DNA of 58,316 nucleotides, counting the filler, from Fonticula-like sp. SCN 57-25 (Eukaryota): the NCBI GenBank assembly GCA_001724245.1. It is 7 parts of 7 records of this genome, joined end to end, with 100 filler letters (N's around TTAATTAATTAA, not from the genome) between each part and the next. Parts side by side here need not be neighbours in the genome. Positions count along the whole stretch, not along the records: positions 50,452 to 58,316 come from MEDX01000349.1; 6 more parts are not named here. The stretch is one strand, 5' to 3'. The position numbers and the translations under genes were made by a program. This document shows positions 18,180 to 58,316 of the stretch, one piece after another; the first letter of the stretch is position 1; the number at the start of each line of letters is the position of its first letter. Under the pieces are notes generated by a model that was not told the DNA's origin, did not search any database, and saw nothing but the letters and a program-made list of their open reading frames with translations.

Positions 18180-18245
18180 TTTGTATGCATTGATCCCAAT
18201 ACATTATGTTTATCTTGTCTTTTCAGCACGCTATTTTCAGCCTAT

Positions 18246-26590: not shown

Positions 26591-26690
26591 NNNNNNNNNN
26601 NNNNNNNNNNNNNNNNNNNNNNNNNNNNNNNNNNTTAATTAATTAANNNNNNNNNNNNNNNNNNNNNNNNNNNNNNNNNNNNNNNNNNNN

Positions 26691-30400: not shown

Positions 30401-30699
30401 ACTGTAGAAAGTTTATTACATTATTTAAATAAGAGGAATGAATTGTTCTTTCCATCCAAAACAGAAATGAAGGGTATAAAAATTTTTATAAATAATATAC
30501 TCTTAATTGTTATTGTTCTTCCTTATTTTATAGTTTATAAACATAAATCGCTTTAACATAAATACTATCATAATTTGTTCTTGATTATAATTATTGTTGT
30601 TTGTGTATCAAATAATTAATAATCCTGACAATGGTACATATATCATATTTATTATTATAATAATATGATCTGTTAATGATTCGATTTCACATATGTGTA

Positions 30700-32820: not shown

Positions 32821-33414
32821 AAGTAATTAGCCAAGCAATTCATTTATTATATTAATATTAATAACATATTTTTCTTGGTTAATTACAAATTATTATATTA
32901 ATATTAATAACATATTCTTCTTAGCTAATCACAAATTATTGTTTTCAATAAATGAATTTTATTATACATGCAATATTCTTGATGCATTAAAGTCATAAAT
33001 ACTTATATTATGATCATTTTATCTGCCATGTGATTAAAGTATAATAATTTAATGATTTAAATCTATGTAATATATTTACAATATTCTTGTGTTTTTTATA
33101 AATTTATTTATATTTTTTGTACAATTATATGGTAATTATAAATTGTGCAATAGTAACATATAATAATTATGCATTTTTTCTGTTTTGGATTTGCCAAAAA
33201 TATATAAAATTTAATTTTCGTTTTTATCAAAAAATTATTTTCTAAAGCTATATTAACCAACAAATTGGTGGGGAATTTGATGGTTAATTTGATATCATAT
33301 CAAATGGCTCATTCGATATGATTACTCTTATTGATCAAAATCAATGGTCTATTCGATATTATACTTTACAAATTAAATACTTTAATTTGATAAGGATATG
33401 ATCCTTTTATATTG

Positions 33415-33693
33415 CAAATTAAAGTAAACTTTTAATTTGATAAGGTAAAAATAATATAAATATTATTTTATTGATGCTCGTTATATTATATAACTTCGCT
33501 CTTAACAAATTTAAAAGATGAACTTTTAATTTGATAATGCTAAAATAATATAAATATTATTTTTTCTTGTCGCTCACGGTTCTGCGCACTGTTTCGCTTA
33601 AGCAAATTAAAGTAAACTTTTAATTTGACAAGGTAAAAATAATATAAATATTATTTTAATGTCGCTCGTTATGCTACGCATTACTTCGCTTAG
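33415..33693. repeat. Three tandem 91-97 bp units, each with three consecutive hairpins
   Basis: caaattaaa/tttaatttg, aaaataatat/atattatttt, and gctc-[variable hairpin]-ttcgct in each unit. Confidence 0.8.
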
Positions 33694-33884
33694 TGGGGCA
33701 GAAAAAGTAATCAGGTGAATCATTAAATATAATATTCTATTTTTATTATTCTAATCTATTTAATCAACCAAAAATTATGTTTTATATTTAATATTTACAT
33801 TCTGTTTCGATCAATAAATATTTTACAACTCGTATTTAATATCGTTATTCAACCTTTGTTTATCGATACAAAATATATTTTAAC

Positions 33885-34890
33885 TCATTTATCCAAACCT
33901 TATAATTGTTGACAATTTAATCCAAATCATTAATTATCAACAATTTAATCCAAAATTTTAATTATTGACATTTTTATCCAAACCTCTTTATTGCTAACAA
34001 TTTTATCCAAAACTTTGATTATTGACAGCTTTATCCAAACCTCTTTATTGCTAACAATTTTATCCAAAACTTTGATTATTGACAGCTTTATCCAAACCTC
34101 TTTATTGCTAACAATTTAATCCAAAACCTAATTATTGACAATTTTATCCAAACCTCTTTTTTGTTAACATTTTAATCCAAAACTTTAATTATTGACAGCT
34201 TTATCCAAACCTCTTTTTTGTTAACAATTTAATCCAAAACTTTGATTATTGACAGCTTTATCCAAACCTCTTTATTGCTAACAATTTAATCCAAAACTTT
34301 AATTATTGACAATTTAATCCAAACCTCTTTTGTTAACATTTTAATCCAAAACTTTAATTATTGTTGACAATTTAATCCAAACCTCTTTTGTTAACATTTT
34401 AATCCAAAACTTTAATTATTGACAATTTAATCCAAACCTCTTTTGTTAACATTTTAATCCAAAACTTTAATTATTGACAGCTTTATCCAAACCTCTTTAT
34501 TGCTAACAATTTAATCCAAAACCTAATTATTGACAATTTAATCCAAACCTCTTTTGTTAACATTTTAATCCAAAACTTTAATTATTGACAATTTTATCCA
34601 AACCTCTTTTTTGTTAACAATTTAATCCAAAACTTTAATTATTAACAGCTTTATCCAAACCTCTTTATTGCTAACAATTTAATCCAAAACTTTGATTATT
34701 GACAGCTTTATCCAAACCTCTTTATTGTTAACAATTTAATCCAAAACCTAATTATTGACAATTTAATCCAAACCTCTTTTTTGTTAACATTTTAATCCAA
34801 AACTTTAATTATTGACAATTTAATCCAAAACTTTAATTATTGACAATTTAATCCAAAACTTTAATTATTGACAATTTAATCCAAAACTTT
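33885..34890. repeat. 28/29-bp alternating minisatellite (57-bp dimer), about 35 monomers
   Basis: ttatccaaacctctttattgctaacaatt alternating with ttatccaaaactttgattattgacagct and variants. Confidence 0.95.
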
Positions 34891-35258
34891 ATTTTTCATT
34901 NNNNNNNNNNNNNNNNNNNNNNNNNNNNNNNNNNNNNNNNNNNNTTAATTAATTAANNNNNNNNNNNNNNNNNNNNNNNNNNNNNNNNNNNNNNNNNNNN
35001 GCGGGCGTTCGCGCTTGCCGCGCTCTTTTCAGAGGGGCGTAACGATACCATCCACGTGGTCCGATCCGTAATTTTTTGATTATGCTGTTGCCCCGTGATG
35101 TGCCCTGAATGTGCCCAGAATGTGCCTGTGGAAGAACGACGCTAGGCGGGACTTTGTTTCATGGCTAGACAGATGAAAGTGTATATTGGGGAATTATGAC
35201 AGTGCAAATCGAGGAATTTTACAATGTAATTCGAAACAAGCCAGCAGAGGCCAAACTG

Positions 35259-37122: not shown

Positions 37123-40100
37123 TTAGGCCGACACCTCGTTTCCAATGAGGTGCTCGTAAAATTCCGACGCCTTGGCCTTAAAGTCGACCGACGGCTGTCC
37201 GCTCTCAAAGAACTCGGCGACCGCGTCCTTGACGATAACGTCCTCGCCAAACAGGTAGTCGAGCACGTCCGACACGGCGCCGGCCGACAGCCGCGACTTG
37301 ACAACGTACTCGTCAAAGCCCTGCAGGTAGCCGGCCATGATGCTCGTCGTCTCCCCGGCAAAGGTCTTGAGAAGCTCCTCGTACTTTTTCAGGGCGTCCT
37401 CGGGCTCGGCAGAGCCGTCGGCCGGCAGCGCGTGCTCCGCAATGGCATTGAACACGAGCTTGGCGGCCGAGGCAGCCTGAAGCGGCGGCACGCTCTCCAA
37501 AAGCGCCTCGAGCGCAGACACGTCGGCGACAGCGGCGCTCAGCTCAGCGGCAGTCAAAAGAGTCGGCTGCGGGCGATCGGCCGCCGTCAACGACGAAATA
37601 ACGGCCGAAGCGTTCTCAGCGTCGCCGAGCTTCTTGGTGACGGTATCAACAAGCTTCTTGAACGACTCGGTCGCGCGGACATTGTCAATCTCGAGCAGGA
37701 GCTCGGGGGCGACGCCGCCGGCATTGACGGCCTGCACGACAACCTCGGCGGCGGTCGAAACGCAGCTGGGGATGTCCGTCACAAGGTCGTCAAGGATGGC
37801 AAACGCTTCGTCGAAACTACACGAGAGTTAGCACGAGGAAAAGCAGCAGAGTAATAGAAAAAAAACAAGGAAATTGGGCGCATCAGAACCAGAAAAGAAA
37901 TATCCTCACGAAATTCGTCAGAAGAACGAAAGTATTGGTTAAAAGCATCACACGCGCTCATTCCATGCACAATGTAAAATAAAGCCGAAACGTACCCAGC
38001 GACAAAGTCGACGCTCGAGAAGATCTCGTTCTGAAGGAAAGTCATAAGGAGGCCAATTGACGGCTCAATCTCCGAATTCCTCATATCAATGATCTTGAGC
38101 AAGAACTTTTCAACAATCATGTTGTCCGGGTTCTCCTCCTGCAGGCGCTTGACGGAATCCTCAGCGTCCTACGAACCAGCAAGCGTCAGCGGGCCGAAAA
38201 TAAACCAAAAAAAAATCGTACGGCCAGATCCTTGTTATTGAGGTAGCCGCTGATGAGCGCGCCTGTCCTGCGCTCCACCTCTTCGGGGTTACCCTTCTTC
38301 GGCGGCGGCGTGGCCGGCTTGGCCTCGGCCGCCTGCGCCGGGGCGGCGTTCGAGCCGCTGTCGTCGCGCAGAGCGTCAAACTTGTTGGGCTTGGTGGCGA
38401 CAGGGGCGGGGGTGGCGACCTGCTGCGGGCCCTGGCTCGAGGTGGAGCGCTTCCACCCGGGCTGGAACGTCTGCTGGCTCGCCTGCGGCTTCATGCCGAG
38501 CGGCCTATAGGTGCCGGCGGCCTCGGCGGGCGGAGCGCCGCGACCTCCGCGGGAGCCGCGGTCTGTCGACTGGCGGCTCGACCCTCCGCCGCGCGACTGG
38601 CTGCGGAGCGACGAGTCGTTCGTGTTGGAGCGGGACTCGAGCGACTTGACCTTGGTATCCCTCGGAATCCACTTGTCCTTCTCGCGAAGTTCAATAATAC
38701 CCTCCACCATGAAGCGGATGCGCGAAGAGGGCTTCTTCTCGCCGGCCAGAATTGCCTGGAGGCGAGCGATGTGCTCCTTGACGCCCTTCTGCGCCTTGTC
38801 CGACGGCTCAGACGTGTCGAGCTGGCGACCCACAGTGCGGAGAAGGTTGCACACGCACTCCAAATCCTGCTCGTCGGGGTCCTCCAAGAGCATGCGCAGG
38901 CAAGCGTGCATGATGTGGCCCTTCAAGAGGCGCTCCTTGTACAGCTCACCGATAAAGGTCATGATACCCAACATCTGACGCTTCATGCGCAGGCGATTGT
39001 AGTCATACTCCTCAAGCTGCTCCGGCGTCATTTCGGCCTTCATCTCGGGCGTGAGAACCTCGGCACGGTGCTCCTTGTTCGTGAACGAAATCTCGCACTT
39101 GGTGAGCAGTGCGCGGCGGAAAAGGTCGCCAATGCGCTCCGACTTCTCTTCGCCTTCGGGCGTCATGGTCGCGTACTCGCCGGGGATCTCCTTGTGGATA
39201 GCATGGCAAAACTTGGCATAAGTGGGGCCGAACAGCGGCTCGTCAACAGCCTTTTCAAAGAAGAGCTCGACAATGTCGTGCAGCAGCTGCTGCGACCGGA
39301 TGGGCATGGCAAACATCTCCGCCTTGAGAGCATCAAAGTTCTCCTGGCTCAGCTTGTTCAGCAGCGCACGGATGCTACGGAGCGTGGCCTCGTCGAGGTT
39401 GTCTTCCGTGACGGCAAAGCGCTTGTACGCGTTCTCCGAGGCGACCAGCGGCGGGCCAAGGGGCGTCTCGGGCGCGGAACCAGCCTGCGACTGCTTGCGC
39501 GAAAGGTTGCCCCTCGGCTTCTTGCCGCGGTTGTCACGATCGCGGCTGGGCCGAGCATTGCCCGACGGACCCGAACGCGAGACGACGCGCTCGGTGATAG
39601 AGTTCAGGGCGTTCTTTGAGCAAACCTCGCTGGGGAGCTTAAAGTGCTCAGGGAGATCGCTGTATACCTTGTACTGGAGGAGGAGGTCGCGCTGAATAAC
39701 CTTGACGCCGTTGGTGACCGTGATGCCCTGCGACATCAAACGGGCAATCGGCAAAGGGGTCTGCTGCCCCGACGCCTCGCCTTCATTAAGCGGCGTTTCG
39801 CTGCCATCCAAAAGAGTCGTGTCCGACGGCACCTCGGTCGAGGAATTCAGCACGGGCGACTTGGTCTCCACCCTCAGCGGCTGCGCGCGAGCGGGCTCAG
39901 CCTTGGCGTCCGCAGCAGCGGCGGGCTGCGCCTCAACCTTGGCCTTTTCAGTCTCGGACGGAGCCGCCTTCTCAGCAGGGGCAGCAGCAACTTCGGCCTT
40001 TGCAGGTACAGCTGCGGCCGGCTTCTCGGCAACGGGCTCCTTCACTGCGGGCGCGGCAGCGCCAAGATCTACTTTCTCTAACCGCGTTGCTACCTCCTCC

Positions 40101-40531
40101 ACCTTGGTCGGCGTAGCCTCTGCCGCAGAAACCGTGACGGGCTTGTGAGGGGTCTCCGTCTTCTCAGCGGGCTTCTGAGGGGTCTCAGTCTTCTCCTCGG
40201 CGGGCTTTGTTGCCAACGCGGGCGAAGCAGCGTCAACCAACGCCTTTACATTCAGCGCCTCCTTGGTCGTAGGATCAGAAATTTTAATACCCTTCTTTGG
40301 CGTTACCGGGGCCGCTACCTGAGGCGCGGCCCGCATCGGGCTAGGCATCTGCTGCGGCATGAACTGCGGCTGCGGAGCATAGGTAGGGAAATTGGGTTGG
40401 TACATCATGTGCGGCGGTGGCGGGCCATAAAACTGGTTAGGCGGCGGAAACTGACCGGGCGGCGGAATAAAAACGGGAGAATTAACCGGAAAGGCCTGCG
40501 GCGGCCGGTTATTGCGATGAGGACTCGCCAT
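37123..40531 (-). CDS. EIF4G: Eukaryotic translation initiation factor 4G (MIF4G, MA3 and W2-like domains)
   Basis: Pro/Gln-rich N-terminus, IKISDPTT, RSIRALLNKLSQENFD, FEKAVDEPLFGPTYAKFC, FRRALLTKCE, LGIMTFIGELYK, SSRIRFMVEGIIELR. Introns near 38170-38220 and at 37817-37995. Confidence 0.93.
37878..37957 (-). ncRNA. Intronic box C/D snoRNA, SNORD59/snR54-like (18S rRNA 2'-O-methylation guide)
   Basis: Terminal stem gcgcg/tgcgc, box C GTGATGC, guide ACTTTCGTTCTT just before D' CTGA, C' GTGAGGA, box D CTGA. The guide is complementary to the conserved 18S segment AAGAACGAAAGU. It lies in an unusually long (179 nt) intron. Confidence 0.88.
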
Positions 40532-41019
40532 GTCTGGGTAGCCTTTCACGAGTGTCAGCACAATTGCAGGCACAGTATTTCGTGGAGATCCAACACTCAA
40601 CCCGCTCAGACACACTTGAACACAGCAGCAAACAAGTACACAAAGACACCCAATCGACACCACACCACGGATGAGCCCACTCATGACAACACATTACATT
40701 GACAGCATGACGTGAACACGTCGCCTGCCAACTAGACTAGCATCCATCCGTACCTACGATCGACGTCCGATAGATAGACTAGGTCGCGGAAGGGGCGCTT
40801 TGCGGCTCTCCTTCGCTGCGGTTATGCCGTCGCACCCACAGGAGCTAGTCCTAGTGCGGTACCCGGCGATGGATGGATGGAGCTGCCTTCGGTCACCCTG
40901 CAGTGGCCGATGCACGTTCCGTCTGCAGTCGGATTCGCGCGCGCGATGGATGCAAGCAACTCGCAGTTTGCAGTTTGCAATCTAGTTTCTCGGCTCGTTG
41001 TGATTCTTTCTCCTTCGAG

Positions 41020-42140
41020 ATGGGGAGCCTGGAGAAGACCCATGGCCTGCCGGTTTCCACAAAGGTACGCAAAGCAGCTCGACCCCGGCTGCTGGGCTCA
41101 CTTTAATTGGACTTAACTAACGCCCGCCGCAGGACAAGCAGTCGCTGCAGTCGTATGGGACCGGCATCATCGCCTCGGTCGTGGCCTTCTACTGGGTCGT
41201 GTCGCTGTCGGTCGTGTTCCTTAACAAGTACATCTTCAGGTACGCACTCTTCTCCCCTGCCGCGCCTTTGCTCACACGCACCCTTAGCTCGTCAGAGAAC
41301 AAGTTCCCGTACCCGCTCTTTGTGACATGGTACCAGATCTTTGTCGCGCTCGTGCTTCTCGTGGTGTGCGGCTGGCTTGGCCAGTTCTGGCGTCCCCTTT
41401 CCATGATCCCCCCCATGACGCTCACCCGCCACACCTCGTCCCAAATTATGCCCCTCACGCTGCTCTACGTCGGCATGCTCGGCACCAACAACCTCTGCCT
41501 CCAGTATGTTGAGGTTTCCTTTTACCAGGTCGCGCGCTCGCTCTCGATCGTCTTCAACATTATCTTTACGTACACTGTCCTCGGCCAAAAGACATCGTCG
41601 CCCGCCATCATGTCGTGCGTCATTATTTTCATTGGATTCGTGCTTGGCTCGTACGGCGAGATGAACTTTTCGTGGGAGGGCGTCGTTTATGGCGTCGCCG
41701 CGAGCTGCTTTGTCGCGCTCTACGGCATCTTTGTCAAGAAGAAGCTCGCCGTCGTGCAGGACAACGAGTGGGTCCTGCTCCAGTACAACACTGCGCTCGC
41801 CACCGTCGTGCTGCTCCCCATCGTCTACGCCAGCGGCGAGTTTGCCTTTTTGAGCGACCCCGAGGTCGCGCACCTCCTCACCAACTGGTCGTTCTGGCTC
41901 GTCATGACGATCACCGCCATCACCGGCTTCCTCATCAACATTGCAATCTTCCTCCAAATCAAGGTGACCACGTCGCTCACAAACACCATCTCGGGCACCG
42001 CCAAGGCCTGCGTGCAGTCGCTCCTCGGATGGCTCGTGTTCCGCAACGTCATCACGCCGCTCAACCTCACCGGCATCCTCCTCTCGCTCGCGGGCTCAGC
42101 GCTCTACTCGTGGGTCCGCTTCCGCGAAATGCGCCGCTAA
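41020..42140 (+). CDS. SLC35C1: GDP-fucose transporter-like nucleotide-sugar transporter
   Basis: FYWVVSLSVVFLNKY, PLFVTWYQ, NNLCLQYVEVSFYQVARSL, IKVTTSLTNTISGTAKACVQ; multiple TM segments; two short introns. Confidence 0.88.
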
Positions 42141-42633: not shown

Positions 42634-42899
42634 NNNNNNNNNNNNNNNNNNNNNNNNNNNNNNNNNNNNNNNNNNNNTTAATTAATTAANNNNNNNNNNN
42701 NNNNNNNNNNNNNNNNNNNNNNNNNNNNNNNNNTGACAGGCTTGTCACAACAGCTGACGTAATGGTAAATCTAGAGCTGCTGCTGCACAGCATCACAGAT
42801 GCGGCATCGCATGAGTACACAAGTGTATAAGTAGCGTACCTATTTATTGAAAGGTCAAAGTACAATCGTCACACATTGGCATCATCCTGAAGTAACGGA

Positions 42900-47130: not shown

Positions 47131-47201
47131 GCGCCGGTGGTCTAGTGGTAGAATTGCCGCCTGCCACGCGGTAGACCCGGGTTCGATTCCCGGCCGGCGC
47201 A
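47131..47201 (+). tRNA. tRNA-Gly(GCC)
   Basis: Acceptor GCGCCGG/CCGGCGC, TGGTCTAGTGGTAGAAT, anticodon GCC at 47163-47165, GGTTCGATTCC, and a T-run terminator from 47210. Confidence 0.97.
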
Positions 47202-47544
47202 CTGCCTTATTTTTTTGTTTTTTTGTAGCAGCCTTTTGCACGAGTGGGCGTCCGAAAGCCATACAGGACAAGAGTAATTCTTTGGCAGTAGATGTATCAG
47301 AGAGGCATGACTTTTTCTCAGGTGTCCCGACTAGTTCAATGTGAGTGAATTGGTTTTAATGATGCGTTTATGTGAAATTCTGAGTTAGCGCCACTTTCTC
47401 TGTGTTCATTGTGGCCAGTGTTTGTATCGTGTTTATATAGTCATATGAAGCAGAGCAGAGAGTCATAATTATCACTTTGTCACTGATACCTTCCCTCCAC
47501 CCTTACTATAAACAATCGCGATTCAATCCCGATCGAGCTGTAAA

Positions 47545-49250: not shown

Positions 49251-50319
49251 CTAGACGTCAGGGTTGTACTTCACGACGCTTTGCCGCATGAACGCTCTGA
49301 AGCGCTCTGCGTACTCGTCGGGCGGCACTACCGAGATCTGCTTCCCGTCGTAGACAATCCTCTTGAGGTAGTGCTCGCCCTGCTTGAGCGCCTCGTACGC
49401 GATGAGAATGTCGATGATGCCGACGAAGACGACCTGCTCGCCGATAAGCACGGAGCCGTGCCCGTCTTCGGCAAACGACGCCATGCCACCGTCGTCCATC
49501 GCAAAAACGCTCTGGCGCGTCATTCGTGGCACCTGCGCGTCGTCCTCTGGGAACGACGTCGCAGCGCTAAGGGAGGGGGCTGCGCGGCCGCCGCCAACGC
49601 TGCGCCGCAGCGTCCCGAGCAGCTTGGCCAGCGAACCGCGCTGCACAATCCCCGACGACGGCGCCGGCGACGAGGTCGACGCGACAGACGAGGTCGACGG
49701 AGAAGCAGAAATTGCATCTGAATCGCCTCCGACTTTGCCGACTCTGGAATCATCATGCTGCTGATTCTGATGCTCTGCTGCCGGTCCACCCTCAACTCCC
49801 CCTTCGACTTTGTCCCCGACTGGCGTAGAACATACGCTCGCTCCTCCCCCAACTCCTTCCCCAACTCCACCCTCGACGGCTTTTTCGATCTTTTTCTTTT
49901 GCTGCTCGACAAAGTGTGTGAGCTCGGCCTCGACGACGATGGACCCGCGGTCCCTCTTGTGCACGCCGACGAGCAGCGAGTAGTCGATGATGCCCTGCGC
50001 CTGCAGGAACGCGCTGTCGGCATCGATCTGCGCGAGCAGCCGCGGGGCAATGACCGGGCCGACGTCGACGCGCGCGCCGACCTCGATAAAATCGAGGTCC
50101 TTGAGCACCTGGCGCGTGTTGCGGAGGTCGACGTCGGGACCGACCGTGCGGCCGACAGTCGAGCCCTTGAGGTCAAAGCGCGTGTCGATGCGCAGCGACG
50201 CATTGAAAATGTTGCCCATCACCACGAACCGGCAAACAACGTCGCCGATAGTCAGGCGGTACAGCCCGTAGATGCGCGACAAAAGCGTGTCGGGGTTTGC
50301 GCGGAGGTGAGCGTAGTAG
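49251..50319 (-). CDS. Phosphatidylinositol phosphate kinase (PIP5K/PIP4K family), last exon only
   Basis: TLLSRIYGLY, FVVMGNIF, FDLKGSTVGR, LKDLDF, IIDYSLLVGVH, GIIDIL, ISVVPPDEYAERF. Confidence 0.93.
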
Positions 50320-50451
50320 CTAAGGCGCGTCAGAAGAAGCAGAAAAAGGGANNNNNNNNNNNNNNNNNNNNNNNNNNNNNNNNNNNNNNNNNNNNTTAAT
50401 TAATTAANNNNNNNNNNNNNNNNNNNNNNNNNNNNNNNNNNNNNNNNNNNN

Positions 50452-50525
50452 GCGGCAGGAGGTGCCCGAGCCGGTAAACCCAGCGTTGCAGGTGCAGGTT
50501 CCAGCGCTCTGGTTGCAGGTCGCAT
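50452..50525 (+). repeat. 74-bp direct repeat, identical to 58243-58316 (both ends of the contig)
   Basis: gcggcaggaggtgcccgag...tggttgcaggtcgcat is identical at both positions. Confidence 0.98.
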
Positions 50526-51500
50526 TCGGGTCGCAAGTAAGGTAGTCAAAGGCAATGAATGCACGGAACGACGCTCCAGAAACCCAGGCGTAATAGGTAC
50601 CGATTAGGCTGTCTACATACGTATGGCGGAAGCCGGTCTGTTAACAGGAGATTAGAAACGAAGCGACAAACTGAGTAACCGCGTATGGATACATTGCTAT
50701 TTGTAAGTCGAACGGCGGCATTCAAAGTAGCTGCAGTGATCGGGACCGACCCAAAGCTATGAAAGTGGAGACCCTCTGAGAATTTATGAACAGCATCATT
50801 CGTTGCCATACCTTCCGTTTGGAATGTATTTTGTTGCGGTGGCCAGTGCTCCCAGACGAGCTGTAAGCAAAGGTTGATTGCCGTAGGAAAGTTTCGTGTG
50901 AGTCCTGTGAGAATCCAAGGGGCAGCGTGAGTGGGCAGAGCGAAAAATTTTGCCCAGCAGCTGTGCAGGCGCACCATGTCGTCGCCGGCGCATCGACTCG
51001 GATTTGAACAAAGTTGGAAGTCAAAAAGGAAGCCTGGGTCGGCATAATGTTAAAGGTCGGAGTACCATAGGCGCAGAAGCGCGAAGGCGTCGGCTATTAT
51101 GGAAAAGCGCGATGTCAGATCGCCTGACCCAACCGACTACAACAAACTGAGCTCGAAGCGTACCGCGAGCGCAGCAAAGTTAAACATGAGGTAATGGTAA
51201 AGATTCGGCGCAGTACCGGATCCAAGGGTGTAATAGTAGGTATATGCTATCGAGCGCAATACATCAGGACCGGCTCCATCGAGTATCCGCCGACGTACTA
51301 ACAGGCCCCATGAAATCATTCGGCGCGAAACTGGATGTGTAATCCCCGGCGAATTCATATGCCCTGCTGTCGTTCACGCTGCTTACTGGAATCACAGAGT
51401 GGCACCCTGCGTTAGACCAAGAACAACATGAGCGATTCGTACCGCAGAGAAAAACGGCTGCCAGCACCGCCGCCAGCGCGGCTCCCCTTCGCCGAGCCAT
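50452..51500 (-). CDS. 5' part of a receptor (pseudo)kinase gene: signal peptide, DNRLRE/CBM96-like domain, EGF-like domain
   Basis: MARRRGAALAAVLAAVFLC signal peptide. Spliced exons give YLMFNF..WTHTKLSYGNQP, then CDPNATCNQSAGTCTCNAGFTGSGTSC. The last 74 nt equal the other end of the contig. Confidence 0.7.
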
Positions 51501-51956
51501 CAGTCGTTCGGGCAAAACGTGTTGAGGATGTCCTGATTGGACGGAAAAGTGAGCGGGTTTGCTCGGATAGGTCGAGATTCGCGGTCATCGTCCAATAAAA
51601 CCGCGACCGCCGCAATTTCGAGTCATCCAATCACCATCGACTTCACGATGGTGTGATAACAACGAAACAAGGATAATTATGTGCATACTGTACCACTACA
51701 AGAGTGTAGTAGATCGACACGTTCACAGATCACCAGTGATCAAAGTAATTGGACCGCTTCTTTTTAAATGGTCTTCACCGGGTTCCCTATGGGAAATGTA
51801 GGCTCCAAAAAGGAAACCCACGCGGCGCTGCCACACACAACCCTCGAATCCTCGATCAGCAGAATGAACGAACAACATGCGTGGTATGAAAGTATAGACT
51901 GATAATATTACTTTGATACATGGGGTACAAAACCAAGGAGACACACGACGAGAAAA

Positions 51957-54900
51957 TTACTGGCAAAGCTGCGAAATTCTGGCGCTGACGACGGCAGCCA
52001 ACGGGCGAAGATCCGTCTCAAGGCTGACACACTCTTGGATGACGGATGCGAGGGCAAGCGAGTGCACATCATCGTTGTCGCAAACCACCTGAAGACCCTT
52101 GCCGGCCTTGACAGCGCTCGTCACCGAAGCATCAGAGATCCCACCCCACGGCGCGGACCCAGACAGGATCTCCAGCATGACAACGCCGAGCGAGTAAACG
52201 TCCGACGCCTGGTCCGCTTCAATAGACTCGGAATCGCGGCTTTCCGCGATGCGCACAATCACCTCGGGAGCGGCGTAGCGCACGTTGACTGCCGACTCGC
52301 GCACATAGAACGTGTGCCTGTTTGGAACAATCGTGAGAATGCAAGACTAAACATAAGGATTGACGCACTCGGCGCGCGACTCTGAAAAGTGGCCCAGGAG
52401 CGCGACGGGCATCGACGACGACTCGGACGGCGGCGCCACATAAATGTTGGCCGACTCGATGGCGCGGTGCGCAACGCCGAGGGAGTGCGCCGCGTTGACC
52501 GCCTGAGCGATATCCACGCAGAGGTGAAGAATGCCCTCGATAGGCATCGGGCGGGCCGCCTCGGCCAGGAAGCGCGGCAGGTCCCAAGCGTACTCGCGGA
52601 CCAAGATCGTGCGCGGCTCATCCGCGTAGGCAAGCAACCCGACAACGTTGGGATGGAACGACAGAGACCACAAGATAGACACTTCAAAGTGGAACAGCTC
52701 GTCGTTCATCTTGGGCGTCAGCTCCGCGCGGTCGTTGTAGTCGATGGCAACAACAGTACGGCTACCGGCGCGCTGCACAAGCCGGTCGTCAAGGAGGGTC
52801 GCATGATACATGGTGGCGCTCGTCGATGCCTGAAAGCAGAGACATTAGAAAACGGCTAACAAACATAAACCAGCGCGTACATCGACACGCTCGCCAGGCT
52901 GGACGGTCGTCGCATAGTCAATGAGCAAAAAGCCGGGAAGCGCAATCTCGGCGACAGTGTTCACCACAGTCTTGTCCGCAAACGAAAGATGCGTCTTGCC
53001 GTCAGCGTGGCTCATGCTGCTTTGCGAGCGCGCGAGCGTCTGGCGGTACGACTTCAGCGCCATCTAAGAATAACGGGCCACGTTAGAGCAGGCATTAAAT
53101 TGTAACAATGTGACGCACCAGGCCGCCCACGCCGCCAAACTCGTCCATCTTTGCATCCGTGCGCCTCTGGCGGCGGCGCGAGATCACCACAAGAACAACA
53201 ATCACAACGATAAGAACCACCACGGCAGACGCGCTCGCCGCAGCGATAATGGTACCGTTCGTGCCAAGACCGGGGTCCGACACAACATTATCCGTCGTCG
53301 AGAGCGTCGTAAGAACAAGGCGCGTGCCAACCTGCTCCTCACCGTTTGCATCACCGGCGAGAATAAGCACCTCATAAGCGCGGCCAGATTCGAGATCGCC
53401 AATCACCGCCACCGTGTTGTCCGCTACGAGCATCCACACACTGTCAGCCATCAACAAATTCACACGCTTAGGCGTACTCGAGTTGACGCGCGAGTGCAAC
53501 GTAAAGTCGTCCGCAGCCGCGCGTGAAGGCACAACCTCGCGATAGTACACATGGTAGTACGTCGCGTGCGGCGACGCAGTCCAGCTCAGCGAAAGCGAGT
53601 CCGTCGACGGCTCATCGAGCCGCAGGCCAGAAGCAGCTACAGACCGGCGTCAGACTAGATAGACACGTACAATCAGCGTACGCGTGATGTAGGTCTCGAC
53701 CGAGATCACCGCGCCGCCCTCCGTGTTGTACCCGTTCTCATCGCCCGACGTGATCCGGAACTGGTAGCTCGTCCTGGGGAAAAGGTTCTTCACCTCGATC
53801 GTCCGCTCCTTGAAATTAATGGCGGCTTTGCGCACGGGTTAGCACAAATCAACCAGCACGCTGCGCGCGCACTGTTCAGGTTGGCCACAACAAAGGCGCT
53901 CGTGCCCAGCGCGACCTCAGCCATGAAGGTGACGTTGCCCGTCGAGTTCAGCACGTTCCACGCAAGCACAACAGACGTCGACGTCTTGCTCGTCCACGTC
54001 AGGTTGGCAATGTTGTCGTTGCTCTCAACCGGGATCAGCTCGCACACGTTCGAAAAGCCTTCCTCCCACGTGCCGTCCAGCTTGCACTGGCGCGACGGCG
54101 GACCAGCGTCCGACTCGCGGTACCCGTGCGGGCAGCGGCCGATGCTCACCTCGCCCGGCTCAGCGGCGGGGAAGAACGTGTTGCCCACGCTCTCCGTCGG
54201 GCAGTCGTCGTACTTGATCTGGCACGGGTTCACAATGGTGGAATTCCACGCTCCAGACAGCAAGCACTGCCGAGTGGGAAGGCCCGTCGTGCCCTCGCGG
54301 CATGCGCCCGTCGCAACATTGCCGGCGAGCGTCTCCGACCACACGGCATCACTCGCAGTGTTCTCCGGGCAATACAAAGCTACGGATACCTGTGAGCAGC
54401 AGACAAATGCGCAAGGCGTCCGTACCTGCGCACGCGTTCGAGATGGCACCCCACTGGCCGTCCTCGTCGCACTCGCGCGACGGCGAGCCCGAGAAGCCGG
54501 CGTTGCACGTTCCGGACACGATCGGCGAGATCGACGGGGACAGCGGCCACTGCGCGTTGCCGTCCTCGACCGCGGGGCACGAGAGACCTACCGAACGTGT
54601 GAGCAACAACGAAAGACAGTGGGGACCGCATACGTGTGCAAGAGTTATTCACCGCGCTCCACTGGCCATCCAGCTTGCATTCCCTCGACGGGCTCCCGGC
54701 GTATCCAGTGTGACACGTGCCGGCAGTCGCACTACCGGCCGTTGTCTCCGGCCAATCAGCGTTATCAAACGCACCCGACGAGCACTTGAGAACTGCAGCG
54801 CGCGTCAGCCAAGGAGACACAAGGCAGCACTACGCACCTGTGCACGACCCAACAATGCCCGTCCACGTGCCCGCCATGCGGCAGTCACGAACCGGCTCGC

Positions 54901-57900
54901 CAACGGAGCCAACGGGGCACGTGCCCAAAACACTGTCTGTCCCGCTATCAGTCTGCGGCCACGAGCCGCTGGCGCCCTCATCCACAGCGGGGCAGGTGGT
55001 GCCTGACAAACAACTAGTAAGCGCGCGGCCATCAAACATAGCCGGCCGTACGAATGCACGGGTTCGACGTCGCAGAGTAGATGCCTTCCGAACTGCAGTT
55101 GCGCAGCGGAGCGCCCTGCCAGCCGTCCACGCATGTGCCGCGAACGCCAACCGTCATCGAATCGGCCTGCGGCCAGTCGGCGTTGTCCGAGACAACCGCG
55201 CTGCAGCGGAGACGCGTGCACGTCCCAACCGCCGCCTCCCACGAGCCGCTCGCGCTGCATGCGCGCGTCGGACGGGTCGAGAACCCAAAGCCCTCGACGC
55301 ATGATCCCATAGCAACCGAGCCGGGCGACGTCGACGGCCACATAACGCTGTTCAGCGTCTCAGCCGGGCACGAGTACTCTGTTGGTACAAGCGTCAATCA
55401 CTACATCAGCACAACAGCATTGATGCGTACGTTCGCAGATACCGGAGATCGGTTGCCACGAGCCATCGGCCGAGCAGGAGCGCGACACGGTGCCATAGTA
55501 GCCATCCTTGCAGGTCCCTGACACCGTCACACCGCCAAGCGTCGCTGGCCACTCGGCATCGCCCTCGGTACGAGCAGCACACTGCTTCTGCGTGCACGGA
55601 TTCGTCACCGTCTCCCACTGGCCCTCGATCGAGCACGTGCGCGTCGGCGACCCCTCAAAGCCGGCAAAGCACGTGCCGGTAGCAACCTGGCCGGCCTGCG
55701 TCGAAGGCCACGACGACTGTTGGCCGTCGTTACCGATCGACGCGCACATGATGGCAGTGCACAGCGGCGACGGCGTCAGCCACGCGCCAGTGAGCGAGCA
55801 GCCGCGCGACGTCGTGCCAGTGTACCCAGCGACGCACGTGCCGGAAGAAGTGTAGCCGGCCTGGATCGTCTCGGGCCATTCGGCAAAGAACGGCTGGTAC
55901 GACGGCAGGTCCTTTGTGCACAAGATCGGCTCGCACGGGTTCGTGATCACAGTGTCCCACTGGCCGTTCTGCTGGCACAGGCGCGTGGGCGTGCCGGTGG
56001 ACTTGTATCCGGCAACGCATGTGCCATTAACAACGGTGTTGACGTCACGCGGCGAAGGCCAGTTGGCGTGGTAGTCGTTGGTCAGCGCGTCGCACGGGTT
56101 GGTCGAGCACGGGTTCAGCACATCGGACCACGTCCCGTTGTAGAAGCAGTCGCGGCGGGGGGAGCCAGACGTGTTGGGATAGCAGACGCCAGAAACCGAC
56201 ATGTCACCGGCATAGGCGGTCGACCAGACAGCCAGCGCGTCCGTGTCATTCACGCCAGCGCACTGCAGCTCTGTCGCGCATCGTCAGCAAGTGCACTTAA
56301 ACCCATTGGCAAATACGCACGGATGCACTCGCCAGACATAGTGCCCCAGTTGCCAATGATATCGCACGACCGCGTCGGCGCGCCCTCCCATCCAGGGTCG
56401 CACGTGCCGACCACATCAGCAGAGCCGGCGGCCACAGGAACCCACGAAGCGTGCGAGTCGATGCGCGGCGGGCACATGATTTCTATGTCGAATGTTAGCA
56501 GCCAACCACGGGCTAATCACAGGCGTACGCGTGCACGGGTTGATGATGTCGCCAAACGTCCCGTCCGCGGTGCAGGGGCGCGTCGGAGACCCAGAAAAGC
56601 CGGCAGCGCAAACGCCAGTAGCAAGCGTCAGCGAATCCGTCAACGACCACGTGGCATTGCCCTCCGTCGTGGCCGCGCATTGAATACCTTCGATCCTCAT
56701 TAATGAGCGCACAGTCAAATGAGAAATCAACGCGTACGGGTGCACGACGGAGACGGGTTGGTCCAGTAGCCGAATATGTCGCAATTGCGGGCCGTCGGCC
56801 CAGAGTATCCCGAGACGCACTCGCCGGCAACCGCATTGCTTCCCGCAGCCGCGCTCGGCCAGTTGGCGTTATTCAGCTGCCCGGCGCTGCAAAAGATTTC
56901 TGCGACGAGCGTGTTAAAAAACATCGTCCACGACGACTAGCGTCGCGCGTACGTGTGCACGGGTTCGAGATGGCGCCCCACGAGCCGTTGGCATTGCAGG
57001 CGCGGGTAGGCGAGCCCGTGTAACCGGGAACGCACGTCCCGGAAGCCGACGTCAGCGAAGGCGTGTTGCCCGGCCAAACAGCGTTGTTGTCGGTCGCCGC
57101 CCCGCACAGGTTTTCTGGCCAGCGTCAGATGTCGTGCACGCACGGCGCGCCAAAACGTACGAATGCAGGTCGGGTTCACCGTCGACGACCAAACGCCCTC
57201 GATGGAGCACGCGCGCGCCGGCGAACCGCTGTACCCGGCTACGCAGGTGCCCGCAGCCGAGTCTCCAGAGTTCGTAAGCGGCCAGTCGGCGTTCTGGTAC
57301 CCAGTCACCGCAGCGCAGGTAATCCCTGTACGCGTGATCAGCGACGTCAGCGGTTGATATAATGAACCACGTACGGATGCAGCTGCCGGTGACGGTTGAC
57401 GACCAGGCGCCGTTCGAGCACAGGCGCGTCGGCGCGCCGCTGTAGCCCGCATTGCACGTGCCCGTGGCCGTGACGCCGTGCGACGTCTGCGGCCAGCTCA
57501 CGAACCGAGCGGCGTCCGCCTGGGCGGGGCAATTCATCGCTGCACAGTTAAATGTCAGGTACGCCTACTTTAAATATCTGCGCGCGCGCACCAACGCAGG
57601 GCGAGGTGACCGGTCCCCATGTGCCCGACGCAGAGCACGTGCTCTTGGGCGACCCGCCAAAACCACTCGCGCACGTTCCAGTCGCAGTCGCAAGGCTCAG
57701 CGTCGCAGGGAAACTGGCTGTACCAATCGTCTCTGCGGCACAGACGTGCTCTGCCGATATCGTGTGAACGCGACGCAAAAACAATATCGATCGCGACCGG
57801 CGTACGAACACACGAAGGAGAGGGCGTCGACGACCAGACTCCGGTGACGCCGCACGCCAACTTGGGCGTACCATACCAGCCGGAAATGCACGTACCCGTC

Positions 57901-58316
57901 GCGGTAGTCCCCGCGTTTGTCAACGGGTACGAGGCGCTGCCGGGCCCGGAGGGGTACGCCGGGCATGTAATCTCTGCACGTTGACGTCAGTTACGATTCG
58001 ACCATTCTAATTTGTCCCGTACTGGTGCACTGCGTTCCCGTCACTGCGCCAAACGTTCCGTCGTCCGTCGTAACAAGCAGACTTTGGCGCTCCGGTAAAG
58101 GTCGACACGCACACGCCGCTGCCGGTGGCGCCGTGGTTGGTAAGCGGGAACGCGGCGTTGCTGAGTGTCGTAGCAGCACATTTGTTGAAAGCTAGCGGGA
58201 TTTAACGTAAATGAAAAGTCGCAATACCACAATCAGCGTACCGCGGCAGGAGGTGCCCGAGCCGGTAAACCCAGCGTTGCAGGTGCAGGTTCCAGCGCTC
58301 TGGTTGCAGGTCGCAT
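51957..58316 (-). CDS. Single-pass receptor pseudokinase: EGF, about 21 hormone-receptor(HormR)-like Cys modules, 2 FN3, TM, TKL-like pseudokinase; frameshift at 58057-58070
   Basis: Repeats of C..A.WP.T..G...G.C..G(F/Y).G.P.R.C...G.W....NPC; FN3 motifs (VVLAW..NLFPRTSYQFRI; LSLSW..DLESGRAYEVLI); TM AVVVLIVVIVVLVVI followed by SRRRQRR; kinase fold HPNVVGL, RYAAPE, SDVYSLGVVMLEI, RP. Confidence 0.85.

What the first reader, a model, noticed from the sequence alone, without database searches (positions are those of the whole stretch)
51957..58316. Giant receptor with about 21 tandem hormone-receptor-like modules on a kinase-fold tail
Seen: 21 modules of about 53-58 aa with 4 Cys and usually 2 Trp (WPxTxxG...RxCxxxGxW), then 2 FN3, a TM and a kinase fold. 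Known: this pattern matches the HormR/HRM domain, normally a single copy in secretin and adhesion GPCRs (Sushi is the alternative but lacks WPxT). Inference: HormR-like domains reused as a long stalk presenting an N-terminal sensor, an architecture I do not recognise from characterised proteins. It is a candidate prey or self-recognition receptor and a clue to the origin of the GPCR hormone-binding domain.
Basis: partly seen in the sequence, partly recalled or inferred. Interest (0 to 1): 0.75.

Follow-up and report, generated by a model that had tools for sequence, protein, structure and literature searches.

The report
Giant HRM-repeat receptor with dead kinase
This is a real, intron-rich gene of a microbial eukaryote for a very long cell-surface receptor built from 21 hormone-receptor-like beads and a catalytically dead kinase; it belongs to a little-studied receptor family of amoebae related to fungi.

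Summary
On the minus strand, 51957-58316 encodes the end of an EGF-like domain, exactly 21 four-Cys modules (period 53-58 aa), 2 FN3, a TM helix and a kinase fold. The modules score best as Pfam HRM: 15 of 20 modules hit HRM, 13 Ephrin_CRD and 10 Sushi. A single-module model (pLDDT 95) is closest to Eph-receptor "sushi" and GPCR HormR domains (TM 0.6-0.82). It is further from complement CCPs (TM 0.48-0.56). As an array it looks like CCP beads on a string.

The kinase lacks the beta3 Lys, the HRD Asp and the DFG Asp, and it sits in an old clade of 11 dead kinases.

The architecture is not unique. Fonticula alba, Nuclearia and unnamed environmental relatives carry module, FN3, TM and kinase together, with 2 to 21 modules. 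A 2025 paper notes HRM-bearing non-GPCR membrane proteins in F. alba.

New here:
- The contig's ends overlap by 74 nt, which points to a signal peptide and a tentative N-terminal domain at 50452-51500.
- A 7-bp duplication breaks module 1.

Most likely this is a long-reach co-receptor that signals through active paralogues. That function is inferred.

The parts
51443..51500 (-). Exon 1: start codon (51498-51500) and a signal-peptide-like N-terminus (three Arg, then a hydrophobic run). It belongs to this gene only if the contig's 74-nt end overlap is a true join; otherwise it belongs to the next tandem copy.
   Evidence: It has a GTACG donor followed by a 57-nt intron. The codon-usage score does not favour this frame, which is usual for signal peptides.
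50526..51385 (-). Tentative N-terminal non-repeat region of about 175 aa, with few Cys. Proposed exons: 51385-51299, 51246-51164, 51093-50975, 50904-50812, 50756-50693 and 50637-50452. The last exon runs into the EGF-like domain.
   Evidence: The hand-built model is in frame from the ATG to the EGF exon (690 nt, 230 aa) with introns of 52-70 nt. The codon score favours the model frame in 5 of 7 exons, but not in exon 1 or in 50904-50812. No Pfam hit was found, and no homologue beyond the EGF part.
50452..50525 (.). First 74 nt of the contig, identical to its last 74 nt (58243-58316). This is the signature of a circular or tandem-collapsed assembly, or of two tandem paralogues that share the EGF exon.
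   Evidence: 50-nt tail found at 50476 and 58267; 74-nt identity test returned True.
58242..58316 (-). 3' part of the EGF-like exon. It ends in a phase-1 GTACG donor.
   Evidence: Pfam EGF_3 29.5 bits against a cut-off of 28.5, scored on the identical copy at 50452-50640.
54039..58191 (-). 21 tandem HRM-like / Eph-sushi-like four-Cys modules in 15 exons. Twelve exons hold one module, one holds five, one holds two, and one holds two plus the start of FN3-1. All bounding introns are phase 1 and 45-55 nt long.
   Evidence: structure models.
58058..58071 (-). 7-bp tandem duplication (two copies of one heptamer) inside module 1. It shifts the reading frame between the third and fourth Cys.
   Evidence: The exon is 169 nt, whereas 162 would be in frame. 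The module profile hit stops at 58070. Reading through with X restores a normal module.
53683..54014 (-). FN3 domain 1, which spans the intron at 53826-53872.
   Evidence: fn3 E=0.012 on the second exon; relatives pass the Pfam cut-off; coordinates.
53305..53682 (-). FN3 domain 2. It contains a candidate in-frame 54-nt intron at 53424-53477.
   Evidence: fn3 22.7 bits, E=1.1e-4.
53182..53250 (-). Transmembrane helix of 23 hydrophobic residues, followed by a basic stop-transfer stretch (53161-53181).
   Evidence: weak Pfam EphA2_TM hit, E=0.011.
52914..52964 (-). Conserved juxtamembrane box (..NTV.E.ALPGFL..), shared by all seven family members aligned.
   Evidence: also present in the Amoeboaphelidium and Fonticula proteins; coordinates.
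51960..52829 (-). Kinase-fold domain in two exons (52829-52369 and 52317-51960) with dead catalytic motifs. There is no beta3 Lys (VAID, 52740-52754). HRD reads HRA (52446-52472). DFG reads HFS (within 52377-52400). The G-loop is degenerate. The alpha-C Glu, the catalytic-loop Asn and APE are kept. The stop codon is at 51957-51959.

Best explanation
**What it is.** This is a type-I single-pass membrane receptor of a eukaryotic microbe. Its nearest named relatives are in Nuclearia, Fonticula and an aphelid, which are early-branching relatives of fungi.

**Anatomy (shown).** Reading from the N-terminus:
- a signal peptide and a non-repeat region of about 175 aa (both tentative)
- one EGF-like domain
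- a rod of 21 disulfide-bonded modules of the HRM / Eph-sushi branch of the Sushi fold, with 4-6-residue linkers (4 in 19 of 20)
- two FN3 domains
- a TM helix
- a family-specific juxtamembrane box
- a kinase fold that has lost the beta3 Lys, the HRD Asp and the DFG Asp.

**How it most likely works (inferred).**
- The ectodomain is a long semi-rigid stalk. If it is extended like CCP arrays at roughly 3.5 nm per module (a figure I recall, not from a call), it would reach about 70-80 nm.
- The stalk would hold the N-terminal domain far from the membrane, or offer many similar binding surfaces to a ligand or particle.
- The dead kinase cannot phosphorylate. The receptor would therefore signal by pairing with a catalytically intact paralogue of the same family, through the conserved FN3, TM, juxtamembrane and kinase parts. 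ErbB3 and EphB6 work this way in animals (recalled).

**Caveat on this copy.** The assembled copy carries a frameshift in module 1. It may be an assembly error or a very recently disabled copy in a tandem array.
For: **Anatomy.**
- Exon and intron table.
- 21 modules.
- Pfam EGF_3, HRM, fn3 and kinase hits.
- TM helix and motif coordinates.

**Module class.**
- Per module, HRM hits 15 of 20, Ephrin_CRD 13 of 20 and Sushi 10 of 20.
- The single-module AF2 model has pLDDT 95.4. Its best PDB matches are the Eph CRD (TMq 0.71-0.82), CRFR1/2 (0.72-0.76) and latrophilin HormR (0.68). CCPs reach only 0.48-0.56.
- The 5-module model has pLDDT 94.4 and is all-beta beads. It matches factor H, beta2-GPI, CR2, CD46 and DAF arrays.
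- Among the best 150 proteins of a 1.84-billion-protein search, the family's own profile gives relatives mean scores of roughly 24-57 bits per module. The giant CCP arrays shown get 8-16 bits per module.

**Dead kinase.**
- Alignment with six relatives and a motif table of 44 kinase regions.
- In a 33-row tree, the 11 rows that lack at least one of the three catalytic residues form one clade with SH-aLRT 100. End branches are 0.11-0.67. This points to a long-lived non-catalytic lineage and argues against fresh decay.
- Fold-defining motifs are kept: the alpha-C Glu, the catalytic-loop Asn, APE, and the SDVY..GV box.

**Active partners plausibly exist.**
- 30 of the 44 rows show the Lys, HRD Asp and DFG Asp together, and 3 more are too partial to score (P0037, P0045, P0051).
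- The rows with all three include P0013 (21 modules), P0017 (17 modules) and Nuclearia P0021. F. alba P0051 shows the HRD and DFG motifs in its fetched sequence.

**Family membership.**
- The juxtamembrane box is shared.
- The window groups at 99 support with P0052, P0054, P0056 and P0058.
Against: - No binding, dimerisation or expression was tested. The co-receptor mechanism is an analogy.
- No active paralogue lies in this window.
- The frameshift in module 1 means the assembled copy as it stands cannot make the full protein from the signal peptide.
- The link between the N-terminal exons and this gene rests on a 74-nt overlap of the contig ends. That overlap could instead join two different tandem paralogues.
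- The N-terminal gene model is weak for exons 1 and 5. It could not be folded or scanned as a spliced protein.
- By sequence profile, the strongest PDB hits are CCP proteins such as CR2 (75 bits). Every single-module Foldseek E-value is above 1e-3. The HRM-versus-Sushi call is therefore one of degree.
- Some kinases lacking canonical residues still bind ATP or act catalytically (general knowledge).
Confidence: 0.6

Rival explanations
1. It is simply a Sushi/CCP-array adhesion protein, and the HRM label is a quirk of the Pfam models. On this reading the modules say nothing particular about GPCR hormone-binding domains.
For: - The module profile's best PDB hits are CR2 (75.1 bits), complement C2 and factor B.
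- The 5-module model's top Foldseek hits are all CCP proteins, 67 of them at E<=1e-3.
- The four Cys, the short (4-6-residue) linkers and the phase-1 exons are as in animal CCP arrays (recalled).
- Sushi passes its Pfam cut-off on the 5-module exon (40.7 against 20.7).
Against: - The CCP alignments cover only profile positions 19-52. Full-length alignments (positions 2-45 or 2-51) go to EphA2 CRD, latrophilin, BAI3 and GHRHR.
- HRM outscores Sushi on every fragment that hits both except one, in 9 of 9 eukaryotic relatives, and per module (15 against 10 of 20).
- Single-module TMq is 0.6-0.82 to HormR and Eph sushi, against 0.48-0.56 to CCPs.
- The giant CCP arrays sampled score 8-16 bits per module with the family profile, while relatives average roughly 24-57.
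Confidence: 0.25
2. It is a dead gene or an assembly artefact: a frameshifted, kinase-dead copy on a contig whose ends overlap, with no present function.
For: - A 7-bp duplication breaks module 1, and I found no splice variant that bypasses it.
- Three catalytic residues are lost.
- The 74-nt terminal overlap suggests collapsed repeats.
Against: - Apart from that one site, about 1,950 codons across 28 exons stay open. All 27 introns have GT-AG ends and lengths of 45-70 nt.
- The dead-kinase state is shared by a strongly supported clade of 11 sequences with substantial divergence, so it is old and maintained.
- Orthologous modules are 55-67% identical to relatives.
Confidence: 0.15
3. It is a distant relative of Eph receptors, sharing their layout of N-terminal ligand-binding domain, sushi/EGF, 2 FN3, TM and kinase. 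That would push Eph-type receptors back before the animal-fungal split.
For: - The best structural matches of one module are Eph-receptor cysteine-rich domains. EphB6 gives TMq 0.82 at rmsd 1.6 A.
- Pfam Ephrin_CRD hits 13 of 20 modules.
- The order 2 FN3, TM, kinase is the same.
- There is a weak EphA2_TM hit, E=0.011.
- EphA2 kinase is among the PDB hits of the Nuclearia relative (2.9e-14).
Against: - The best kinase hit is plant CTR1, a Raf-like Ser/Thr kinase (5.1e-19).
- Active relatives read HRDIK/HRDLK in the catalytic loop. That is not the tyrosine-kinase form (recalled).
- Suga et al. found no tyrosine kinases in Nuclearia or Fonticula (PMC4342544; abstract and passages read).
- No Ephrin_lbd hit was found on any N-terminal fragment or on F. 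alba P0051.
- EGF precedes the modules here, and there is no SAM domain.
Confidence: 0.07
4. It is a structural adhesion or cell-coat molecule. The rod mediates attachment to the substrate or between cells, and the intracellular pseudokinase is only an anchor or scaffold with no receptor signalling.
For: - The same module is used without a kinase in relatives. P0001 has 30 modules and P0018 combines a subtilase, EGF and 13 modules.
- Only 3 of 65 family-type representatives among the top 150 carry the kinase.
Against: - Many of those representatives are gene fragments, so the 3 of 65 is a lower bound.
- The FN3, TM, juxtamembrane and kinase cassette is conserved across Nuclearia, Fonticula, an aphelid and the dead clade. 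That fits a signalling unit.
Confidence: 0.15

Closest known systems
HRM / HormR domain (Pfam PF02793) of adhesion and secretin-family GPCRs
   Same: - It is the best Pfam match.
- The motif is shared: Cys, then WP, G, a second Cys, R-x-C, and G-x-W.
- Full-length profile alignments go to latrophilin-1, BAI3 and GHRHR.
- Single-module TMq is 0.59-0.76 to latrophilin, CRFR1/2, GIPR, GLP-1R and PTH1R ectodomains.
   Different: - It occurs as 21 tandem copies.
- There is no GAIN domain and no 7TM region; a single TM helix and a kinase fold follow instead.
- It has four Cys per module, whereas secretin-family ectodomains have six (recalled).
- Most single modules score below the Pfam cut-off.
Eph receptor ectodomain (cysteine-rich 'sushi' + EGF, 2 FN3, TM, kinase)
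   Same: - It is the closest solved structure for one module (TMq 0.71-0.82).
- Ephrin_CRD hits 13 of 20 modules.
- The membrane-proximal order is the same: 2 FN3, TM, juxtamembrane segment, kinase.
- Eph receptors also include pseudokinase members, EphB6 and EphA10 (recalled).
   Different: - No ephrin-binding domain was detected.
- There are 21 modules where Eph receptors have one.
- EGF lies before the modules.
- The kinase is nearest to CTR1 and Raf-type Ser/Thr kinases.
- There is no SAM domain.
CCP/Sushi arrays of complement regulators (CR1, CR2, factor H, DAF, beta2-GPI)
   Same: - Beads-on-a-string architecture with four Cys per bead and short linkers.
- These are the top Foldseek matches for the 5-module model and the top sequence-profile matches in the PDB.
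   Different: - Only the C-terminal two thirds of the module align.
- Single-module TMq is lower, 0.48-0.56.
- The conserved WP..T..G N-terminal half and the R-x-C are family features here.
- The large CCP arrays sampled score only 8-16 bits per module with the family profile.
Fonticula alba 'serine/threonine protein kinase' (P0051, NCBI name) and Nuclearia transcript P0021; the HRM-bearing non-GPCR membrane proteins of F. alba noted in PMC12716839
   Same: - P0021 has the same cassette: modules, 2 FN3, TM, juxtamembrane box and kinase.
- P0051 has a Cys-rich N-terminus, modules, a hydrophobic segment, the juxtamembrane box and an active kinase. Pfam finds no fn3 in it at E<=1e-3.
- The Nuclearia kinase falls in the same tree as the window's.
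- It is presumably the same family that the paper counted.
   Different: - They have 2-3 modules, against 21 here.
- Their kinases keep the catalytic residues, while the window's does not.
- Kinase identity is only about 33-40% between the Nuclearia query and P0015 or P0051.
Unnamed environmental relatives P0002, P0003, P0013, P0015, P0017
   Same: - Giant arrays of 12-21 modules with 2 FN3, TM and kinase.
- 55-62% identity to the window's 5-module exon for P0002, P0003 and P0015.
- P0002, P0003 and P0015 share the dead-kinase clade.
   Different: - P0013 and P0017 are catalytically intact.
- All are uncharacterised predictions, and most are truncated at the N-terminus.

Membership tests
Pfam HRM (PF02793) | Score at or above the curated gathering cut-off (26.2 bits) | tested here: met
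   Multi-module fragments score 68.8, 48.7 and 33.3 bits. Per module, 15 of 20 hit at E<=0.1, with a best E of 4.6e-8. Most single modules on their own fall below 26.2 bits.
Pfam HRM (PF02793) | Conserved core residues (Trp, Pro, Gly, Arg-x-Cys, Gly-x-Trp) on a disulfide-bonded small beta fold | tested here: met
   Consensus. W1 is present in 17 of 21 modules and W2 in 18 of 21. R, G and the four Cys are conserved at 90% or more. The all-beta model has pLDDT 95.4 and TMq 0.59-0.76 to solved HormR and class-B ectodomains.
Adhesion / secretin GPCR | HRM placed N-terminal to a GAIN domain and/or a 7TM bundle | tested here: not met
   No GAIN or 7TM Pfam hit on any of the 23 fragments. There is one TM helix followed by a kinase fold.
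Sushi/CCP (PF00084) | Four Cys, a Trp before the last Cys, short linkers, and a score above the cut-off (20.7 bits) | tested here: met
   40.7 bits on the 5-module exon. 10 of 20 modules hit at E<=0.1. Inter-module linkers are 4-6 residues. Array-level Foldseek matches are CCP proteins. It scores lower than HRM throughout, and single-module TMq is only 0.48-0.56.
Eph receptor family | N-terminal ephrin-binding domain | tested here: inconclusive
   No Pfam hit on the N-terminal ORF fragments or on F. alba P0051.
Eph receptor family | Tyrosine-kinase-group catalytic domain, and a C-terminal SAM domain | tested here: not met
   The best PDB hit of the active relative is CTR1. The catalytic loop reads HRDIK/HRDLK in active relatives and HRAIE here. 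The protein ends at the kinase fold. Suga et al. report no TK in Nuclearia or Fonticula.
Catalytically active protein kinases | Beta3 Lys, HRD Asp and DFG Asp all present | tested here: not met
   The window reads VAID, HRA and HFS at these positions, and its G-loop is degenerate.
Nucleariid-type receptor Ser/Thr kinase family (Nuclearia P0021, F. alba P0051 and relatives; my own grouping, not a curated family) | 2 FN3, TM, conserved juxtamembrane box and a family-type kinase that group together in a tree | tested here: met
   The juxtamembrane box is aligned in 7 of 7 members. The window sits inside the family tree with support of 99-100.

The most novel reading that the evidence does not exclude
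The HRM-type module is not a holozoan invention. On this reading it was already a mass-produced, exon-shuffled (phase 1-1) extracellular building block in the lineage leading to nucleariids, and possibly in the opisthokont ancestor.

In that lineage it is wired to Ser/Thr-type receptor kinases in an Eph-like layout: N-terminal domain, EGF and sushi-like modules, 2 FN3, TM, kinase. The single-copy hormone-binding domain of adhesion and secretin GPCRs and the Eph 'sushi' would then be survivors of the same module family.

This gene would represent an old, conserved, catalytically dead clade of long-reach co-receptors. That would be an invention of ErbB3/EphB6-style signalling logic outside animals, independent of theirs.
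Probability: 0.3. Interest if true: 0.75.

Novelty: new variant of a known kind. Interest (0 to 1): 0.5.

Why it matters
HRM (HormR) is the peptide-hormone-binding domain of class-B GPCRs, and it is treated as essentially holozoan. PMC12716839 found a handful of HRM proteins in Fonticula alba. It left open whether they reflect gene transfer, ancient homology or convergence.

This locus and its relatives add several points:
- In nucleariid-like protists the module is abundant. It is arrayed in tandems of up to 21-30 copies and is encoded by phase-1 exons.
- The module is attached to a conserved cassette of FN3 domains, a TM helix, a juxtamembrane box and a kinase.
- Its structure lies between HormR, the Eph sushi domain and CCP.

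Together these give a concrete set of sequences with which the origin of the GPCR hormone-binding domain can be tested by module phylogeny.

The locus also documents receptor Ser/Thr kinases, and a long-lived pseudokinase clade, in the protist relatives of fungi. Receptor-kinase signalling has hardly been described in that group: four of my literature searches turned up no description of it.

Tried and rejected
**Gene modelling**
- The first automatic gene model maximised open reading length. It wandered into alternative open frames of this GC-rich DNA and was discarded.
- The second model was weighted by codon usage. It was right from module 4 onward but wrong for modules 1-3 and for the N-terminus. 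I fixed those by hand.
- I looked for a splice variant that would bypass the 7-bp duplication. The only candidate, an 85-nt intron at 58030-58114, would delete the core of module 1, so I rejected it.
- One search had swapped arguments and gave all zeros. One search is the corrected run.

**Searches that were closed or found little**
Accession numbers and source names of the relatives stayed unseen.
I could not confirm that the paper's five F. alba proteins include P0051, or see their drawn architectures.
- The homologue search with the exon that ends the N-terminal region found only an EGF match, P0023. Local BLAST of the N-terminal model against 23 fetched proteins found nothing beyond EGF.
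- The ESM Atlas call gave a cluster labelled HRM/Sushi/Ephrin_CRD with no taxa, and its recognition value was low (1503). I treat it as weak and count it only as a lead.
- Rfam and tRNA scans of the window found nothing on this contig.
- A genome-contig scan with the bacterial pilin-like protein P0020 found only its pilin part, in Alphaproteobacteria and Rickettsiales MAGs. None of the 7 loci contained a module.

**Not run**
- Complex prediction was not used, because no partner protein lies in the window.

Full report
**Setting**

The 58,316-base window is not one piece of DNA. It is seven contigs joined by spacers of 44 N, a 12-base linker and 44 N. The finding lies on the last contig, 50452-58316 (7,865 bp).

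That contig's first 74 nt are identical to its last 74 nt (direct test). This is what an assembler produces for a circle, for a collapsed tandem array, or for two tandem paralogues that share this stretch.

The other contigs carry ordinary eukaryotic genes: Vps41, inositol-pentakisphosphate 2-kinase, a MIF4G protein, a TPT transporter and PIP5K. They also carry two tRNAs.

**Gene model**

The gene is on the minus strand and is full of tiny introns.
- Two automatic models were only partly usable. I fixed the rest by eye from three-frame translations.
- From the EGF-like exon to the stop codon (51957-51959) there are 22 exons. Their 21 introns are 45-55 nt long with GTACG, GTGCG or GTATG donors and YAG or AAG acceptors.
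- All 17 introns from the EGF exon through the second FN3 are phase 1. Modules are therefore encoded by symmetric 1-1 exons: 12 exons with one module, one with five, one with two, and one with two plus the start of FN3.
- Every module exon is a multiple of 3 nt except the first (58191-58023, 169 nt). That exon contains a 7-bp tandem duplication at 58058-58071.
- Read with an X at that point, module 1 is normal. Read literally, the frame breaks, and I found no credible splice that avoids it.

- The spliced translation contains exactly 21 four-Cys modules of 49-54 aa from first to last Cys. The linkers are 4-6 residues (4 in 19 of 20), so the period is 53-58 aa.
- The 20-module alignment has six invariant columns (four Cys, two Gly). 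G, G, R and W are each conserved at 90% or more.
- A profile of the modules hits 21 places in the window, all between 54039 and 58183 on the minus strand.
- Downstream lie two FN3 domains, a 23-residue TM helix followed by a basic stretch, and a kinase fold.

**HRM or Sushi?**

The answer is both, by degree.

Evidence favouring HRM:
- On the 5-module exon Pfam gives HRM 68.8 bits, Sushi 40.7 and Ephrin_CRD 40.6, all above their cut-offs.
- Module by module at E<=0.1, HRM hits 15 of 20, Ephrin_CRD 13 and Sushi 10.
- HRM beats Sushi in 9 of 9 eukaryotic relatives scanned.
- An AlphaFold model of a single module (pLDDT 95.4) matches Eph-receptor cysteine-rich domains best (TMq 0.71-0.82).
- Next come CRFR1/2 (0.72-0.76), latrophilin HormR (0.68), and GIPR, GLP-1R and PTH1R (0.59-0.69).
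- CD46, C2, factor B and beta2-GPI reach only 0.48-0.56.
- None of these single-module matches has E<=1e-3, because the domain is small.

Evidence favouring Sushi:
- The module profile searched against PDB sequences scores CCP arrays highest (CR2 75 bits), but only over profile positions 19-52.
- Alignments covering the whole module go to EphA2 CRD (21 bits), latrophilin-1 (18.6), BAI3 and GHRHR.
- An AlphaFold model of the 5-module exon with 17 relatives is confident (pLDDT 94.4). As an array it matches factor H, beta2-GPI, CR2, CD46 and DAF.

The family profile also separates the two kinds in a search of 1.84 billion representatives.
- It found 2,604 proteins at E<=1e-3, 886 at 1e-10 and 188 at 1e-30.
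- Of the best 150, 65 have full-length modules at 25 bits or more, which I call family type. The other 85 do not; those shown are long CCP-like arrays scoring about 8-16 bits per module.

I conclude that the modules are a distinct branch of the Sushi superfold, nearest to HormR and the Eph sushi. The relation of the HormR and Eph sushi folds to CCP is something I recall from the structural literature, not something I read here.

**The kinase is dead**

- Aligned with six relatives, the window's domain reads VAID where the others have VA[IVL]K. It reads HRA for HRD and HFS for DFG, and its G-loop is degenerate.
- It keeps the alpha-C Glu, the catalytic-loop Asn, APE and the downstream fold motifs.
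- Of 44 family kinase regions, 30 show the Lys, the HRD Asp and the DFG Asp together. Eleven, including the window, lack at least one of them. Three (P0037, P0045, P0051) are too partial to score.
- I built a tree of 33 rows. Eleven rows were left out for having fewer than 300 filled columns: P0017, P0037, P0039, P0045, P0048, P0050, P0051, P0055, P0057, P0059 and P0060.
- In that tree the 11 dead rows form one clade with SH-aLRT 100. End branches are 0.11-0.67, and the window groups at 99 with P0052, P0054, P0056 and P0058.
- The three catalytic columns were among the 382 used, which is a small circularity.
- A dead state shared across that much divergence argues for a maintained pseudokinase and against fresh decay.

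**Kinase type**

- The active Nuclearia relative is closest to Arabidopsis CTR1 (5.1e-19). EGFR, ITK, EphA2 and B-Raf follow.
- Active members read HRDIK or HRDLK in the catalytic loop. I recall this as the Ser/Thr or tyrosine-kinase-like form, not the tyrosine-kinase form.
- This agrees with Suga et al. (PMC4342544; abstract and passages read), who found no tyrosine kinases in Nuclearia or Fonticula.

**Relatives**

A search with the 5-module exon among longer proteins found 22 proteins.
- 20 of the 22 carry Pfam HRM, and 6 of the 22 also carry a kinase.
- P0002, P0003 and P0015 are 55-62% identical and have the same layout.
- By my module profile, module counts are 18 in P0002, 17 in P0003, 12 in P0015, 21 in P0013 and 17 in P0017. 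P0001, a fragment without a kinase, has 30.
- The only named hit was a Nuclearia transcript, P0021.

A second search used the intracellular part of P0021 and found 39 proteins.
- They include an NCBI Fonticula alba 'serine/threonine protein kinase' (P0051) and a hypothetical protein of the aphelid Amoeboaphelidium protococcarum (P0053).
- P0051 has a leader and a Cys-rich N-terminus. By the profile it has 2 modules, with a third by eye. It also has a TM segment, the same juxtamembrane box and an intact kinase. Pfam finds no fn3 in it at E<=1e-3.
- Other members pair the same FN3, TM and kinase cassette with furin-like or VSP-like Cys-rich ectodomains (P0028).

The window's organism is therefore probably a nucleariid-like relative of fungi. 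That rests only on the nearest named relatives and is not established.

**What is in print**

- PMC12716839 (eLife 2025; passages read) states that HRM is largely restricted to holozoans. The exception is five (elsewhere in the paper, six) non-GPCR HRM proteins in F. alba, described in one passage as transmembrane.
- The paper offers gene transfer, ancient homology with loss, or convergence as explanations.
- The passages I read do not mention kinases or tandem arrays.
- Searches for Fonticula + kinome, nucleariid + receptor kinase, Fonticula + tyrosine kinase + receptor, and HRM domain + Holomycota found no description of this receptor family. A looser search on Parvularia, kinase and Sushi listed nothing relevant.
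- The library lacks most subscription journals.

**N-terminus**

- Following the 74-nt overlap, the EGF exon continues upstream into 50452-50637.
- An ATG at 51500, 457 nt downstream of the kinase's stop codon, opens a signal-peptide-like exon.
- A seven-exon chain from that ATG reaches the EGF exon in frame (230 aa, introns 52-70 nt).
- Codon usage favours the chosen frame in 5 of 7 exons.
- The region of about 175 aa between the leader and the EGF domain has no Pfam hit on its fragments. It has no relative among 23 candidates or among my fetched proteins.
- If the overlap joins two tandem paralogues and not one collapsed gene, this N-terminus belongs to the next copy.

**Mechanism**

Shown:
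- the domain order
- the type-I topology signals
- the bead-rod fold
- the dead catalytic site
- the conserved juxtamembrane box
- the existence of active family members in relatives.

Inferred:
- The ectodomain acts as a long stalk or a multivalent surface. I recall about 3.5 nm per CCP-like module, which gives roughly 70-80 nm if fully extended.
- The receptor signals by pairing with an active paralogue, as pseudokinase receptors do in animals.

Nothing here tests binding, ligands or expression.

**Verdict**

It is a new, extreme and catalytically dead variant of an uncharacterised but already catalogued receptor family of nucleariid-type protists. It is not an architecture without precedent.

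Its value lies in three things. It shows that HRM-like modules are abundant and arrayed outside Holozoa. It reveals an Eph-like membrane-proximal layout on a Ser/Thr-type kinase. It also reveals an old pseudokinase clade.

Noticed in passing
window 1-58316; spacers at 10501-10600, 18338-18437, 26591-26690, 34901-35000, 42634-42733, 50352-50451: The window is seven contigs joined by spacers of 44 N, a 12-base linker and 44 N. Neighbouring genes across a spacer are therefore not genomic neighbours.
   Followed up: yes
window 26691-34900: One contig has about 20-22% G+C, against 48-65% on the others. It has no Rfam or tRNA hit and no open frame of 170 aa or more. It may be a different genome compartment, a repeat-rich region or a mis-binned contig.
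   Followed up: partly
window 50452-50525 and 58243-58316: The contig's two ends are identical over 74 nt, inside the EGF-like exon. The next start codon lies only 457 nt after the stop codon, on the same strand. This suggests a head-to-tail tandem array of near-identical receptor genes, or a collapsed assembly.
   Followed up: partly
window 53424-53477 (-): A 54-nt stretch inside the second FN3 has a strong GTACG donor and a TAG acceptor, but it is also in frame and free of stop codons. It could be spliced or retained.
   Followed up: no
proteins P0020 and P0022; loci L001-L007: Two bacterial-looking proteins have a prepilin-type N-methylation motif (Pfam N_methyl on P0020; precomputed PF07963 for both). 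They also carry 7 and 4 modules that closely resemble the eukaryotic consensus. Relatives of their pilin part occur in Alphaproteobacteria, Rickettsiales and other Pseudomonadota genomes, mostly MAGs, but the 7 fetched loci hold no module. Exchange of the module between protists and their bacterial associates is possible.
   Followed up: partly
protein P0018: The same module is used in another architecture: signal peptide, subtilase, EGF and 13 modules, with no kinase. In this lineage the module is a general extracellular building block.
   Followed up: partly
proteins P0028, P0031, P0047: The FN3, TM, juxtamembrane and kinase cassette of the family is also combined with other ectodomains, such as furin-like or VSP-like Cys-rich repeats and extra FN3 domains. 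This points to domain shuffling on a constant signalling core.
   Followed up: partly
window 18245-18332 (+) and 47131-47202 (+): tRNA-Thr(TGT) is 88 nt long, so it possibly contains an intron. tRNA-Gly(GCC) is 72 nt. Both lie on other contigs.
   Followed up: no
window 527-1123, 22624-23295, 38189-40693, 41121-42137, 49254-50351: Ordinary eukaryotic housekeeping genes lie on the other contigs: Vps41 beta-propeller, inositol-pentakisphosphate 2-kinase, a MIF4G protein, a TPT-family transporter and PIP5K. Several long open frames had no Pfam hit, for example 2679-5891 (-) and 14625-17726 (+).
   Followed up: partly
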